Below the pieces are notes generated by a model. That model searched no databases. It was not told the DNA's origin and was given only the letters and a program-made list of their open reading frames with translations. Source: Candidatus Omnitrophota bacterium (GTDB lineage: Bacteria; Omnitrophota; Gorgyraeia; Zapsychrales; Zapsychraceae). Taken from it: a stretch of 64,000 bases of DNA. The position numbers were made by a program, and so were the translations under genes. Positions 33,621-57,374 of the stretch are shown in pieces; positions within the stretch are counted from its first letter, which is position 1, and each line of letters starts with the position of its first letter. Location: contig JAFGFL010000062.1 of the NCBI GenBank assembly GCA_016931055.1, positions 17,451 through 81,450 on the forward strand, given 5' to 3'.

Positions 33621-34040
33621 TTAGTTGACTTCAGAGGAAACTCTTTCGGAAGGACTACCTAAACTGCCCTCCGCAACGATTTCCCGATCGTAGGCCTCCA
33701 GAATTTTGGTCTGCAGATACTCACGAAATTGCTGAGTGATGGGATGAGCGATATCGCGGTGTTCTGTCTTGGCATCCAAGAGTTCCGTGTTTTGGCTTTC
33801 CGACTTTATCGTTTCTCCGCAATGATTGCAAAATTTGCTGCCGACTTCATTCTTAAAATGACATTTATGGCATAAACGCTTCATTTTACGCGACGGCATC
33901 GCGATAAATAAGCCGTTTGAGCCCTGAATAACCTTGATATTCCTGACCACAAAGGCATTGTCAAATGTTACCGTCGCGTAAGCCTTTAATTTCTTATCCT
34001 GGCCTTCCTTTTGAAAGACACGTATCTCCGTAATCTCCAT
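33621..34040 (-). CDS. spoVG: SpoVG-family protein with an internal zinc-ribbon insertion
   Basis: MEITEIRVF...AYATVTFDNAFVVRNIKVIQGSNGLFIAMPS and ...HRDIAHPI match SpoVG. A ~36-aa insert, CHKCHFKNEVGSKFCNHCG..., lies between them. Confidence 0.8.
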   Translation of the reverse strand: MEITEIRVFQKEGQDKKLKAYATVTFDNAFVVRNIKVIQGSNGLFIAMPSRKMKRLCHKCHFKNEVGSKFCNHCGETIKSESQNTELLDAKTEHRDIAHPITQQFREYLQTKILEAYDREIVAEGSLGSPSERVSSEVN

Positions 34041-35169: not shown

Positions 35170-36180
35170 TCAGGGGGTATTGCGGCGGACCTGGATATTC
35201 TTGACTTCATTAATCTTCGAAATCACCTCATCCTGTTTCGGCAATAACTCCAAGGATAATTCCCAATATTTAATCGCTTCATCGATATTATTCAGTTTAC
35301 GATACACATCTCCGATATGATCATAAATGACCGGATCTTTCAGATATTTATCCGCCTCTATAAGCGTTTTAAGAGCTTCTTCATACATCCCTTTTTTGTA
35401 ATAGACCCATCCCAAACTATCCAAGTAACCGCCATTATTAGGACTGATCACCAAAGCGCGCTCAATTAAAGTTTTCGCTTCGTCCAAGTTAACACTTTTT
35501 TCCGCATATAAATACCCCAGGGTATTGAGTCCATTGTCGTGCTCCGGATCGATCTCAATCGAACGCTTAAGCAGCTCAATAGCCTGATCCTGCTTATGGA
35601 CCTCCCAATACAAAGAGCCAAGCAAATAGAGGACATCGGCATTTTTGGGCTCGATCGTCAGGATCTTCTCATATTGCTCGATGGCTTGATCGTACTTTTT
35701 CTGCGAATAATAGAGCTGCCCGAGATAACTGTAAATTTGGATATTTTGAGGCTCAGCTTCGGAAAACGTCTTCAAGATCAGCTCATATTCTTTGGCCGCC
35801 TTATCATATTCTTTTTGAGTGGAATAAATCAAGGCGAGCAAATAGTGGGACTGGAGATCTTCCGGATTGAATTGATGGACAAGAAGCAGCTCCTCAATCG
35901 CCTCGGGAAGCATATTTAAGCGCGCGTAGGCCGCGCCCAACCTTAAATGGGTTAAGTAACTGTTCTCGTCATACTGGATCGCTTCCTCATATTCCATCGT
36001 AGCCCTGTTTGTCATCCCAAGCAAATCATACACCTGGCCCATGGCATAGTGCGCCAACCCCTTTGCCGCGGAAACCTGGTCCTGATAAGCAAAAGCATCC
36101 GCAGGCCGGGTGCAACAAACAGCTGCTGCCAAAAGACACAGGCAAACGAAAGTCTTGATCATCGAAACATTTCGCATCAT
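35170..36180 (-). CDS. secreted tetratricopeptide-repeat protein
   Basis: Signal peptide followed by ~8 TPR units (recurrent A..Y...I..DP pattern). Confidence 0.75.
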   Translation of the reverse strand: MMRNVSMIKTFVCLCLLAAAVCCTRPADAFAYQDQVSAAKGLAHYAMGQVYDLLGMTNRATMEYEEAIQYDENSYLTHLRLGAAYARLNMLPEAIEELLLVHQFNPEDLQSHYLLALIYSTQKEYDKAAKEYELILKTFSEAEPQNIQIYSYLGQLYYSQKKYDQAIEQYEKILTIEPKNADVLYLLGSLYWEVHKQDQAIELLKRSIEIDPEHDNGLNTLGYLYAEKSVNLDEAKTLIERALVISPNNGGYLDSLGWVYYKKGMYEEALKTLIEADKYLKDPVIYDHIGDVYRKLNNIDEAIKYWELSLELLPKQDEVISKINEVKNIQVRRNTP

Positions 36181-36197: not shown

Positions 36198-36299
36198 TTA
36201 GCGCGTTTTGCGTTTTTTAAGATGCCGTAAAGCCTTCCGCATTTTCTTGCGTTTATGCGTCGCGATTTTACGTCTCTTTCTTTTTCTTCCGCATGGCAT
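36198..36299 (-). CDS. 33-aa highly basic peptide, bS22-like (AURKAIP1/COX24-type) candidate ribosomal protein
   Basis: Not in the ORF track (<60 aa). My translation is MPCGRKRKRRKIATHKRKKMRKALRHLKKRKTR. An AAAGGAAG SD lies ~8 nt upstream. The ORF starts 20 nt after the hisG stop. Confidence 0.6.
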   Translation of the reverse strand: MPCGRKRKRRKIATHKRKKMRKALRHLKKRKTR

Positions 36300-36318
36300 A
36301 GGACTTCTTCCTTTGTTA

Positions 36319-37209
36319 TTAATAAATCAGTTTGTTCAACGGATACTCGATGATCCCCTGGGCTCCTGCCTTTTTCAATTTTGGGATCAGTGTCCTGACC
36401 GTATTTTCGCTGATAACAATTTCCACCGCCCTCCAGTTATCTTCAGACAAAGAAGACACGGTCGGGTTCTTAAGCGATGTCAGCAAATTTAGGACTTTCT
36501 TCAGATCCCTGATCTCAACATTCATTTTCAACCCGACCATATTGTTCGCGGCGATGGCTCCCTGAAGCAGCATACTGATCTGGTCCATCTTTCCCTTCTT
36601 CCATGGATCCTTTACGGACGTCTTGTTAGCAATGAATTGGGTGGTTGACTCGCAGATCGTCGAGATGATGCGCAACTTGTGCGCCCGCAAACTGCTGCCT
36701 GTTTCGGTCAATTCAACGACCGCATCAACCAATCCATCCGCCACTTTGGCCTCTGTCGCCCCCCAGCTGAACTCAACATCGGCCTTAATCTTATCCTTCC
36801 TTAAATAAGCCTTCGTGACATTAACGACCTCCGTTGCGATCTTTTTTCCTTTTAGGTCCTTGACGGATCTGATGGATGATTTCTCAGGGACGGCCAGGAC
36901 CCAGCGGACCTTGACCGAACTTTGTTTGGCATAGACCAAATCGGCCAAAACAATGACTTTTGAGCCATTCTCAAGAATCCAATCGGCCCCTGTAATCCCG
37001 CAATCAAGAGCGCCTTCCTCCACATACCGGGACATTTCTTGTGCCCTGAGTAAGACCGGCTCAATTTCTCTATCATCTATGGTTGGAAAATACGACCGGC
37101 CGGAAACATAGATCTTAAAACCGGCGCGTTCAAAGACCTTGACCGTCGCTTCCTGCAAGCTTCCCTTTGGCAATCCTAATTTGAGTTTTCGCATCTTACC
37201 GCCACTCAT
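36319..37209 (-). CDS. hisG: ATP phosphoribosyltransferase (long form)
   Basis: [14 protein letters not shown]... HisG core plus a C-terminal regulatory domain. The true start may be the second ATG (MRKLKLG). Confidence 0.9.
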
Positions 37210-37279: not shown

Positions 37280-37308
37280 AAACAGCGTATTATAGCCTCG
37301 CTCATCAC
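37280..37308 (-). promoter_or_regulatory. near-consensus sigma70 promoter for hisG
   Basis: The minus strand reads TTTACA-17 nt-TATAAT, ~70 nt upstream of hisG. Confidence 0.6.
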
Positions 37309-37407
37309 CGATGTAAAGATAATTATAATGTATACTATAGTATAATGTTTAATTGCTCTTTTACGCAAGAAATTGACTAAAAAAGCAACAAACTTTACTG
37401 AAATTCC

Positions 37408-37436
37408 TTGTCAAAGGTATCGTTGAAGGCTATAAT
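37408..37436 (+). promoter_or_regulatory. near-consensus sigma70 promoter for the ppiD-like gene
   Basis: The plus strand reads TTGTCA-17 nt-TATAAT. This places leader copy b inside the 5' UTR. Confidence 0.65.
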
Positions 37437-56558: not shown

Positions 56559-57374
56559 TCAGGAATCCGGCTGATGATCCGTCAGCGAAATCTCTTTCTT
56601 GACAGCCGTGATCCTGTCCGGAATATAGGGATGGCTCCTTAAGATAATAGGAGCATTGATCCCTTTGGATTCCTTCTCAAGCAATTCCAAAGTTTGAATC
56701 ATCGCCTCCGGGTCATAACCGGCCAAGCGCAGGTATTTAACACCCAGGCGGTCGGCTTCGTATTCATCCCTGCGGCTATAAGCGGAAGAGACAAGGCTCA
56801 TGACGACATTGGAACTCATCGATGCGATTTGCCGCGCCCCCTCGCCTCCCACTTGCCCTAAAACAATATTGCCGATCAGATTATACCCCAGGGCCGCCTG
56901 GTATTTTTTCACCGTATGACGGGCGGCGCAATGCCCTACCTCATGCGCGATCACCGAAGCGATCTGATCTTCCGTCGTCAATTCATCGACCAGCCCGGAA
57001 AACAGATAAATATTCCCGCCCGGGGTCGTAAACGCGTTCATCTCGTCCTTTTCGATCAGGTAAAAATGATATTGATAATCCTGCCTGTCAGAAACCTGCG
57101 CCACGCGCTGGCCGATGCGGCGGACCCTCTCGGTCTCCGCGGAATTCCTTGAAAACGTGTATTCTTGGTTCAGCTTCTGCTGGACTTCCTCGCCCAGAGA
57201 TATTTCCTCAGGCGTCGAGATAAAGATAAGCTCGTTGCGCCCGGTGGCCGGATTATATGTCCCCAGCGAAGCGCACCCGCAAAAAAGAAAGACTAAAGAC
57301 AACAGACTAAAGACGAAAGACTTGCTCAGGAAAAATAAAGATTGGCGATCATCTGATTCCAGCTGTATGAACAT
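56559..57374 (-). CDS. M48-family zinc metallopeptidase lipoprotein
   Basis: HEVGH motif. The start is at ATG 57374 (GAGGAGAAGGAA upstream), giving a signal sequence plus an FCGC lipobox. Confidence 0.8.
   Translation of the reverse strand: MFIQLESDDRQSLFFLSKSFVFSLLSLVFLFCGCASLGTYNPATGRNELIFISTPEEISLGEEVQQKLNQEYTFSRNSAETERVRRIGQRVAQVSDRQDYQYHFYLIEKDEMNAFTTPGGNIYLFSGLVDELTTEDQIASVIAHEVGHCAARHTVKKYQAALGYNLIGNIVLGQVGGEGARQIASMSSNVVMSLVSSAYSRRDEYEADRLGVKYLRLAGYDPEAMIQTLELLEKESKGINAPIILRSHPYIPDRITAVKKEISLTDHQPDS

What the first reader, a model, noticed from the sequence alone, without database searches (positions are those of the whole stretch)
36198..36299. Unannotated 33-aa hyper-basic ORF resembling ribosomal protein bS22
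The hisG-TPR spacer encodes MPCGRKRKRRKIATHKRKKMRKALRHLKKRKTR, with an AAAGGAAG SD. It starts 20 nt after the hisG stop and ends 17 nt before the next gene. From memory, this resembles the small 'AURKAIP1/COX24 domain' peptides of Bacteroidota and relatives (MPSGKKRKRHK.ATHKRKK...). Those correspond to bS22, seen in mycobacterial and Flavobacterium ribosome structures. The ORF is below the 60-aa cutoff of the track and would be missed by many gene callers.
Basis: partly seen in the sequence, partly recalled or inferred. Interest (0 to 1): 0.55.

Follow-up and report, generated by a model that had tools for sequence, protein, structure and literature searches.

The report
Missed ribosomal protein bS22 gene, Omnitrophota
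A 33-codon gene that gene finders skip, sitting between hisG and a TPR gene in a Candidatus Omnitrophota genome, encodes a close relative of the tiny, very basic ribosomal protein bS22 seen in Borrelia and Bacteroidota ribosome structures; it is a real gene, but an ordinary new member of a known family.

Summary
On the minus strand, 36299→36198 is an ATG…TAA ORF of 33 codons (MPCGRKRKRRKIATHKRKKMRKALRHLKKRKTR). An AAAGGAAG Shine-Dalgarno lies 7 nt upstream. The ORF starts 19 nt after the hisG stop and ends 17 nt before the TPR gene.

It is a real gene:
- An ORF of exactly 33 codons sits at the same place in every Omnitrophota relative examined (15 orthologues, hisG identity 100% to 67%).
- Synonymous sites are saturated (pS 0.92) while pN is 0.19. 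The flanking spacers vary in length and sequence.

It is homologous to experimentally seen bS22. phmmer gives E = 6e-6 against Borrelia 8FMW chain V, 1.5e-5 against Flavobacterium 7JIL and 6e-4 against Porphyromonas 9I5V. Identity is 20/28 to 20/30, and 0 of 5000 composition-matched shuffles reach the score.

The Pfam COX24_C and NCBIfam ribo_bS22 models do not hit it. They also miss the Borrelia and Flavobacterium proteins, so that negative says nothing. There is no sequence similarity to mycobacterial bS22 beyond composition.

A genome scan found at least 120 such peptides in about ten phylum-level lineages. Omnitrophota mostly carry a distinct 33-aa subtype (…LRHLKKR…).

Verdict: interpretation supported; a new member of a known kind; modest interest. 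Ribosome binding is inferred, not shown.

The parts
36198..36299 (-). 33-codon CDS (ATG..TAA) encoding a bS22-type peptide, MPCGRKRKRRKIATHKRKKMRKALRHLKKRKTR
   Evidence: ORF. (PDB bS22 hits). (shuffle test). (conserved frame, pN/pS about 0.2). (family HMM E = 2.2e-12, the only strong hit among 1833 six-frame segments of the window). (predicted helix 4-32).
36307..36314 (-). Shine-Dalgarno-like AAAGGAAG, 7 nt upstream of the ATG
   Evidence: An SD-like motif is present upstream of 13 of 15 Omnitrophota orthologues, against 5 of 72 in mostly Bacteroidota copies, a lineage that lacks SD.
36319..37209 (-). hisG (ATP phosphoribosyltransferase, long form), the upstream co-oriented gene. There is no terminator-like site between it and the small ORF.
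   Evidence: HisG + HisG_C. (no terminator on the minus strand). (the hisG then small ORF order is conserved down to 62% hisG identity in Omnitrophota, and at 58% in a PVC-group bacterium).
35170..36180 (-). Downstream co-oriented TPR protein gene with a hydrophobic N-terminus, followed by ispE and spoVG. Probably the same transcription unit.
   Evidence: TPR families. (conserved order hisG, ORF, TPR, ispE, spoVG).
37289..37317 (-). Promoter-like TTTACA-17-TATAAT about 80 nt upstream of hisG. Candidate promoter of the unit (consensus match only).
   Evidence: 11 of 12 matches. The number of promoter-like sites in the region is not above the shuffle expectation, so this is weak.

Best explanation
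The ORF is a real, translated gene for the small-subunit ribosomal protein bS22 of the Bacteroidota/Spirochaete sequence type (relatives of Fjoh_1533 and bb0822), in a Candidatus Omnitrophota genome. It is probably co-transcribed with hisG and the downstream TPR-ispE-spoVG genes, and translated from its own Shine-Dalgarno. By homology, the 4.2-kDa, roughly 58% Lys/Arg peptide forms a single alpha-helix. That helix inserts into the rRNA pocket between 16S helices h44/h45 (with h2 and h27) at the subunit interface, and its basic C-terminus reaches 23S H67-H70 to add an inter-subunit bridge. Shown here: the ORF, its conservation under purifying selection, its homology to bS22 chains in solved ribosomes, and its lineage distribution. 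Inferred: expression, ribosome incorporation and the binding site in Omnitrophota.
For: - PDB: the top three hits are bS22 chains from cryo-EM ribosomes, with 20/28 to 20/30 identity, including the non-basic positions M1, P2, C3/G4, I12, T14 and H15.
- Shuffles: 0 of 5000 composition-matched shuffles reach the score; z = 11.2, 11.4 and 9.6.
- HMM: a profile of 60 unique short-type peptides from other lineages hits only this segment strongly in the window, E = 2.2e-12.
- Orthologues: a 33-codon ORF lies in the same hisG-TPR spacer in all relatives, and the other two frames carry stops.
- Selection: over 105 pairs of 15 orthologues, mean pS is 0.915 against pN 0.185.
- Flanks: the spacers differ in length (19-77 nt upstream, 17-140 nt downstream) and do not align.
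Of these, 119 follow an ATG or GTG directly (one is cut by a contig end) and 118 read through to a stop at 28-35 aa.
- Initiation signals fit each lineage: SD in Omnitrophota and Spirochaetes, none in Bacteroidota, GTG starts in spirochaetes as published for Borrelia.
- AlphaFold2 predicts a helix over residues 4-32, pLDDT 92.7.
- Literature: bS22 binds the h44/h45 pocket and bridges to 23S. The Borrelia authors predicted further unannotated copies in other bacteria.
Against: - There is no expression, proteomic or structural data for any Omnitrophota ribosome.
- Curated family models (PF08213, NF047430) do not recognise the peptide.
- It has no detectable sequence similarity to the founding mycobacterial bS22.
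- The Omnitrophota subtype has a different, longer C-terminus (…LRHLKKRKTR against …NRHKKK), so the contacts with the 50S subunit may differ.
- The genome-scan pattern was designed from the query. It therefore shows distribution; it is not independent evidence of homology.
- The AlphaFold2 helix for a 33-aa polybasic peptide is weak evidence, and Foldseek returned nothing.
Confidence: 0.88

Rival explanations
1. Chance ORF: a purine-rich intergenic spacer that happens to be open for 33 codons and looks 'basic' because AAR/AGR codons abound.
For: A 33-codon ORF is not rare by chance (about 0.2 per start). Polybasic low-complexity peptides give inflated similarity scores. There is no Pfam or NCBIfam hit.
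Against: Composition-matched shuffles never reach the observed similarity to solved bS22 chains. Frame, length and start are conserved in 15 orthologues with saturated synonymous change. The same peptide is found in unrelated genomic contexts in many phyla, directly behind a start codon in all 119 loci where the upstream bases are present.
Confidence: 0.01
2. The peptide acts mainly outside the ribosome, as a free cationic peptide (antimicrobial or bacteriocin-like, or a nucleic-acid-binding peptide).
For: Synthetic Cutibacterium acnes bS22 inhibited growth of E. coli and staphylococci and inhibited cell-free translation (PMC10085706). The composition resembles that of cationic helical peptides.
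Against: There is no signal peptide, no export, immunity or maturation genes nearby, and the neighbours are housekeeping genes (hisG, ispE, spoVG). Extreme conservation across phyla fits an rRNA-binding core component better than a fast-evolving bacteriocin. All close homologues with experimental data are ribosome-bound.
Confidence: 0.04
3. A regulatory leader or upstream ORF whose translation controls the downstream TPR-ispE-spoVG genes or couples them to hisG. The act of translation would matter, not the product.
For: Tight spacing (19 nt after hisG, 17 nt before the TPR gene) and no terminators. The hisG, ORF, TPR order is fixed across Omnitrophota.
Against: Leader peptides are not conserved at the amino-acid level across phyla and contexts. 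This one is, including in Bacteroidota and spirochaetes with other neighbours (only 10 of the 120 scanned loci carry hisG nearby). In relatives the downstream spacer stretches to about 140 nt, which does not fit obligatory coupling.
Confidence: 0.03
4. The conserved element is a structured RNA (riboswitch, attenuator or sRNA) rather than a coding sequence.
For: It lies in an intergenic spacer next to an amino-acid biosynthesis gene.
Against: There is no Rfam match even at E <= 1. The fold energy is ordinary, z = -1.1. Variation is concentrated at third codon positions with no indels in the ORF, which is a coding signature.
Confidence: 0.01

Closest known systems
Borrelia burgdorferi bS22 (bb0822; PDB 8FMW chain V; Sharma et al. 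2023, PMC10618245)
   Same: Identical N-terminus MPCGRKRK. 20 of 28 residues are identical without gaps. It is short, about 60% K+R, and was unannotated in its genome because of its size. A Shine-Dalgarno precedes the gene in the Borreliella and other spirochaete loci scanned.
   Different: Borrelia uses a GTG start and is 28-31 aa, with a C-terminus …KKKRRKNRHKK. The window peptide uses ATG and is 33 aa with …KKMRKALRHLKKRKTR. The phylum and gene neighbourhood differ. The Borrelia protein was seen in cryo-EM density; this one has not been.
Flavobacterium johnsoniae bS22 (Fjoh_1533; PDB 7JIL; Jha et al. 2020, PMC7797042) and Porphyromonas gingivalis bS22 (PDB 9I5V/9I5X; PMC12123416)
   Same: 20 of 30 residues identical. 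Shared motif MPxG[KR]KRK..K[IVM]ATHKRKK. Single basic helix.
   Different: Ser or Asn at position 3 instead of Cys. 30 aa ending in a Lys run. These genes lack a Shine-Dalgarno, as is typical of Bacteroidia. The Omnitrophota C-terminus is longer and contains Leu24 and Leu27.
Mycobacterium smegmatis / Cutibacterium acnes bS22 (PDB 5O61; Pfam PF08213 COX24_C; NCBIfam NF047430 ribo_bS22)
   Same: Same length (33 aa), the same extreme basicity and, according to the literature, the same binding pocket as the Fjo and Bbu proteins.
   Different: No sequence similarity beyond composition (6 of 33 identical, z = -0.5). The curated models that recognise the mycobacterial protein (46 and 63 bits) give no hit for the window peptide.
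Mitochondrial mS38 (AURKAIP1/Cox24) C-terminus and eukaryotic/archaeal eL41
   Same: Published structural analogues that occupy the equivalent small-subunit pocket.
   Different: mS38 is much longer and eL41 is a 25-aa straight helix. Neither human eL41 nor Msm bS22 is detected by the HMM built from this peptide family. Homology versus convergence is unresolved in the literature.

Membership tests
bS22, Bacteroidota/Spirochaete sequence type (Fjoh_1533 / bb0822 relatives) | Free-standing ORF of about 28-33 codons | tested here: met
   33 codons, ATG to TAA. The family members found are 28-35 aa.
bS22, Bacteroidota/Spirochaete sequence type (Fjoh_1533 / bb0822 relatives) | Extreme basicity (about 55-65% Lys+Arg, pI above 12, per PMC10085706 and PMC10618245) | tested here: met
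   19 of 33 residues are K+R (58%), no Asp or Glu, computed pI 12.0.
bS22, Bacteroidota/Spirochaete sequence type (Fjoh_1533 / bb0822 relatives) | Sequence similarity, beyond composition, to bS22 chains modelled in solved ribosomes | tested here: met
   phmmer E = 6.4e-6 (8FMW_V), 1.5e-5 (7JIL_5) and 6.3e-4 (9I5V_10). z = 9.6-11.4, with 0 of 5000 shuffles reaching the score.
bS22, Bacteroidota/Spirochaete sequence type (Fjoh_1533 / bb0822 relatives) | N-terminal motif M-P-[CSN]-G-[KR]-K-R-K-x-x-K-[IVM]-x-T-H-K-R-[KR]-K | tested here: met
   The window has MPCGRKRKRRKIATHKRKK. The motif is present in the three PDB proteins and in the scanned peptides. The scan pattern itself imposed part of the motif on the latter.
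bS22, Bacteroidota/Spirochaete sequence type (Fjoh_1533 / bb0822 relatives) | Reading frame maintained by purifying selection in related genomes | tested here: met
   15 orthologues, all of 33 codons, pS 0.915 against pN 0.185. The alternative frames contain stops.
bS22, Bacteroidota/Spirochaete sequence type (Fjoh_1533 / bb0822 relatives) | Alpha-helical fold | tested here: inconclusive
   AlphaFold2 on the single sequence predicts a helix over residues 4-32, pLDDT 92.7. This is a prediction only, without the published bend, and Foldseek against the PDB returned no match.
bS22, Bacteroidota/Spirochaete sequence type (Fjoh_1533 / bb0822 relatives) | Stoichiometric presence in the 30S pocket between h44 and h45, with a contact to 23S H67-H70 | not testable with these tools
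   This needs purified Omnitrophota ribosomes (cryo-EM or mass spectrometry). No rRNA gene lies in the window, so even the pocket sequence could not be compared.
Pfam PF08213 COX24_C / NCBIfam NF047430 ribo_bS22 (mS38 and actinobacterial bS22) | Score at or above the curated cut-off of the family model | tested here: not met
   No hit at E <= 10 to either model. Controls: Msm bS22 scores 46.2 and 62.6 bits, while the Fjo and Bbu bS22 also give no hit and the Pgi protein reaches only 11.8 bits. Not a member as these models define the family.
Pfam PF08213 COX24_C / NCBIfam NF047430 ribo_bS22 (mS38 and actinobacterial bS22) | Pairwise similarity to M. smegmatis bS22 beyond composition | tested here: not met
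   Score 38 against a shuffle mean of 41 (z = -0.5); 3566 of 5000 shuffles do as well.

The most novel reading that the evidence does not exclude
The Fjo/Bbu-type bS22 may not be a speciality of Bacteroidia, mycobacteria and Borrelia. It may be an ancient component of the ribosomes of a large part of the bacterial tree, systematically missed by gene callers: Bacteroidota, Ignavibacteria/Chlorobiota, Rhodothermales, Marinimicrobia, WOR-3, Latescibacterota, Spirochaetota, Omnitrophota and a PVC-group bacterium. Within it, Omnitrophota would have evolved a distinct 33-aa subtype. Its extended, partly hydrophobic C-terminus (…LRHLKKR-x-WG or …KTR) would make a lineage-specific contact with the 50S subunit. 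Its invariant position directly behind hisG would reflect co-regulation with amino-acid supply rather than historical accident.
Probability: 0.12. Interest if true: 0.5.

Novelty: new member of a known kind. Interest (0 to 1): 0.35.

Why it matters
It adds a ribosomal protein to the inventory of Candidatus Omnitrophota, an uncultured phylum for which no ribosome has been studied.

It is also a concrete example of a conserved, probably essential gene that standard gene calling drops:
- It was not called on any of 7 public contigs of this locus and its relatives.
- Only 2 similar entries exist among 1.84 billion representative predicted proteins.
- The curated Pfam and NCBIfam models miss this sequence type, including the proteins proven in Borrelia and Flavobacterium structures.

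Two practical consequences follow. A dedicated profile for the MP[CSN]G[KR]KRK…THKRKK type would recover the gene in many phyla. Statements in the literature up to 2026 that bS22 is found in 'Mycobacteria and Bacteroidia' understate its distribution. It does not change what bS22 is understood to be or do.

Tried and rejected
- Pfam and NCBIfam scans of the peptide gave no relevant hit. Positive controls showed the models also miss the Fjo and Bbu bS22, so the negative is uninformative.
- Exact look-up in the 15-billion-protein collection did not find the window peptide or four orthologues. The annotated Fjoh_1533 sequence is absent too, so this cannot be read as 'never annotated'.
- Foldseek of the AlphaFold2 helix against the PDB returned 0 matches. 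A single short helix carries too little information.
- Structured-RNA reading: no Rfam match at gathering score or at E <= 1, and fold z = -1.1. Rejected.
- The terminator scan found no site separating the ORF from hisG or the TPR gene. A weak promoter-like site inside the hisG 3' end (36378-36350, 9 of 12 matches) is not above chance.
- A second, weak HMM hit in the window (+56741-56800, E = 0.007) is a 20-aa fragment, HPGGRLRIHPCGYKRKRQGS, with no start codon. Dismissed as chance.
- A full-text search found no paper that mentions bS22 together with Omnitrophota.

Full report
**1. What is there**

The window is from a Candidatus Omnitrophota (Omnitrophica) metagenome-assembled genome. Its hisG product is 100% identical to an NCBI protein named 'MAG: ATP phosphoribosyltransferase [Candidatus Omnitrophica bacterium]' on a 93.6-kb contig, and the next 100 homologues are almost all Omnitrophota.

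All relevant features lie on the minus strand:
- hisG occupies 37209-36319 (Pfam HisG + HisG_C).
- After 19 nt that contain AAAGGAAG (36314-36307), an ATG at 36299 opens a 33-codon ORF that ends with TAA at 36200-36198.
- 17 nt later a TPR protein gene starts at 36180, followed by ispE and spoVG.

The peptide has 19 of 33 Lys+Arg, no acidic residue and pI 12.0. No terminator-like hairpin separates the three genes, so co-transcription is likely. That is an inference.

**2. Is it a gene?**

I fetched the same locus from relatives through their hisG proteins and from a genome-collection scan.

- Every Omnitrophota locus with enough sequence has the order ppiD (divergent), hisG, small ORF, TPR, ispE, spoVG. 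This holds down to 62% hisG identity.
- 15 loci, the window included, carry an ORF of exactly 33 codons in that spacer, for example MPCGKKRKSRKIATHKRKKLRKSLRHLKKRKTR. One more (L013, the 62% case) carries a 29-codon short-type ORF in the same position. In the four relatives fetched through hisG, the other two frames are full of stops.
- Across 105 pairs of the 15 orthologues, the synonymous proportion is saturated (mean pS 0.915) while the non-synonymous proportion is 0.185.
- In the aligned relatives the ORF has no indel. The flanking spacers vary from 19 to 77 nt upstream and from 17 to about 140 nt downstream, and do not align.

This is the signature of a protein-coding sequence under purifying selection. 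It does not fit an RNA element: there is no Rfam match even at E <= 1 and the fold energy is ordinary, z = -1.1.

Gene calls attached to the public contigs skip the spacer in 7 of 7 cases.

**3. What is it?**

A sequence search of all PDB chains gave four hits. The top three are bS22 proteins modelled into cryo-EM ribosomes (PDB identities confirmed):

| PDB chain | Organism | E-value | Sequence |
|---|---|---|---|
| 8FMW_V | Borrelia burgdorferi | 6.4e-6 | MPCGRKRKLKKISTHKRKKKRRKNRHKK |
| 7JIL_5 | Flavobacterium johnsoniae | 1.5e-5 | MPSGKKRKRHKVATHKRKKRARANRHKKKK |
| 9I5V_10 | Porphyromonas gingivalis | 6.3e-4 | MPNGKKRKRHKMATHKRKKRLKKNRHKKKK |

Low-complexity basic peptides can score spuriously, so I shuffled the query 5000 times while keeping its composition. 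No shuffle reached the observed scores, with z = 11.2, 11.4 and 9.6. The identities include the non-basic landmarks M1, P2, G4, I12, T14 and H15.

An HMM built from 60 unique short-type peptides of other lineages finds this segment at E = 2.2e-12. It is the only strong hit among 1833 six-frame segments of the window.

AlphaFold2 predicts one helix over residues 4-32, pLDDT 92.7. This agrees with the helical bS22 but is weak evidence, and Foldseek found nothing for so short a helix.

**4. Where the family label needs care**

The result:

| Protein | Pfam PF08213 COX24_C | NCBIfam NF047430 ribo_bS22 |
|---|---|---|
| Window peptide | no hit at E <= 10 | no hit at E <= 10 |
| M. smegmatis bS22 | 46 bits | 63 bits |
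| F. johnsoniae bS22 | no hit | no hit |
| B. burgdorferi bS22 | no hit | no hit |
| P. gingivalis bS22 | 11.8 bits, below cut-off | no hit |

The window peptide also has no similarity to mycobacterial bS22 beyond composition (z = -0.5).

By sequence it therefore belongs to the Bacteroidota/Spirochaete type of bS22. The equivalence of that type with mycobacterial bS22, mS38 and eL41 rests on published structural superpositions, not on anything I could test.

**5. Distribution**

I scanned 185,579 species genomes with a degenerate DNA pattern for PCG[KR]K[R]K-xx-K-xx-THK[R]. By my estimate, assuming equal base frequencies, chance would give about 1e-3 matches.

- In 119 of the 120 the match follows an ATG or GTG directly; the other is cut by a contig end. 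118 read through to a stop and encode a peptide of 28-35 aa; one more is cut short by a contig end.
- The labelled lineages include Bacteroidota (Chitinophagales, Cytophagales, Flavobacteriales, Saprospiraceae), Ignavibacteria/Chlorobiota, Rhodothermales, Spirochaetota (Borreliella, Treponema, Sphaerochaeta), Neomarinimicrobiota, WOR-3, Latescibacterota, a PVC-group bacterium and Omnitrophota.
- Translation signals fit each lineage. SD-like motifs precede 13 of 15 Omnitrophota copies, 14 of 14 spirochaete copies and 10 of 11 Ignavibacteria/Chlorobiota copies, but only 5 of 72 in the remaining, mostly Bacteroidota group. 13 of 14 spirochaete copies start with GTG, as published for Borrelia.

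Two subtypes appear:
- A 29-31-aa form ending …RKKRLRKNRHKKK, found in most lineages.
- A 33-aa form ending …RKKMRRKLRHLKKR(A/D)WG or …KTR. It occurs in Omnitrophota and in MAGs labelled Planctomycetales that share the Omnitrophota gene order.

The window carries the 33-aa form. One Omnitrophota MAG (L013) has the short form in the same hisG-linked position.

The pattern required Cys3, so Ser3 and Asn3 forms (as in F. johnsoniae and P. gingivalis) and any other variants were not counted.

**6. How it most likely works**

From the cryo-EM literature:
- bS22 lies in a pocket formed by 16S h2, h27, h44 and h45, beneath the platform and neck.
- Its basic C-terminus touches 23S H67-H70, giving an extra inter-subunit bridge.
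- It dissociates from isolated F. johnsoniae 30S subunits at low Mg2+ but is present in 70S complexes.
- In M. smegmatis, its loss increases aminoglycoside susceptibility (which cites the preprint listed).
- The Borrelia gene had no transposon insertions.

I infer the same role for the Omnitrophota peptide. The longer C-terminus with Leu24 and Leu27 may alter the 50S contact. None of this is shown for Omnitrophota.

**7. Novelty**

bS22 is known. The Borrelia paper explicitly predicted more unannotated copies in other bacteria, because the ORF is short and the pocket is conserved.

I found no paper that connects bS22 with Omnitrophota. [quoted passage not shown]

Only two proteins in a library of 1.84 billion representatives resemble the peptide at E <= 1e-3. 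The family is therefore almost absent from predicted proteomes.

The finding is correct and tidy. It is useful for annotation and as a hint of a wider distribution. It remains a new member, and a mild subtype, of a known kind, so interest is modest.

Noticed in passing
window 33621-34040 (-): The SpoVG homologue is 139 aa instead of about 95. A roughly 37-aa zinc-ribbon-like insertion (residues 57-79; CxxC…CxxC; weak Pfam Zn_Ribbon_1/DZR hits) interrupts the SpoVG domain. Weak zinc-ribbon hits are also on record for the orthologues in L002 and L005.
   Followed up: partly
L014, L071, L094, L110 (genome contigs): MAG contigs labelled 'uncultured Planctomycetales/Planctomycetia' carry the 33-aa subtype. 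L014, L071 and L110 also have the Omnitrophota gene order ppiD/hisG/bS22/TPR/ispE/spoVG and 67-72% hisG identity to the window. L094 is too short to include hisG. They are probably Omnitrophota with a wrong taxonomic label.
   Followed up: partly
L042 ('Streptomyces griseus' MAG) and L092 ('Citrobacter sp.' MAG): Both contigs carry a peptide identical or nearly identical to the Chitinophagaceae type, with an A-rich upstream region that lacks a Shine-Dalgarno. They look like mis-binned or mislabelled Bacteroidota contigs.
   Followed up: no
L017:2036-2987 (PVC group bacterium ex Bugula neritina AB1): The hisG then bS22 adjacency seen throughout Omnitrophota also occurs here (hisG 58% identical), but with the short peptide subtype. 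The linkage may therefore predate the 33-aa subtype.
   Followed up: partly
Spirochaete loci L009, L037, L039, L046, L050, L051, L061, L077, L087, L088, L115, L120, L121: 13 of 14 spirochaete bS22-type ORFs start with GTG, behind a strong GGAG. This extends the non-canonical start reported for Borrelia to Treponema, Sphaerochaeta and other spirochaete MAGs.
   Followed up: partly
P0123 (48 aa, representative protein library): A bS22-like protein with a tandem duplication of its first 19 residues: MPSGRKRLRQKMATHKGVY + MPSGRKRLRQKMATHKRKKRLRKNRHKKK. It may be a real duplication, an assembly artefact or a mis-called start.
   Followed up: no
L002:98-862 and L003:211-975: In one close relative (hisG 90% identical) an IS66-family transposase gene sits upstream of hisG, where the other relatives have ppiD. 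The hisG-bS22-TPR unit itself is left intact.
   Followed up: no
window 37289-37436: Two near-consensus promoter-like sites face away from each other in the hisG/ppiD intergenic region: TTTACA-17-TATAAT on the minus strand (37317-37289) and TTGTCA-17-TATAAT on the plus strand (37408-37436). Each matches 11 of 12 positions.
   Followed up: no
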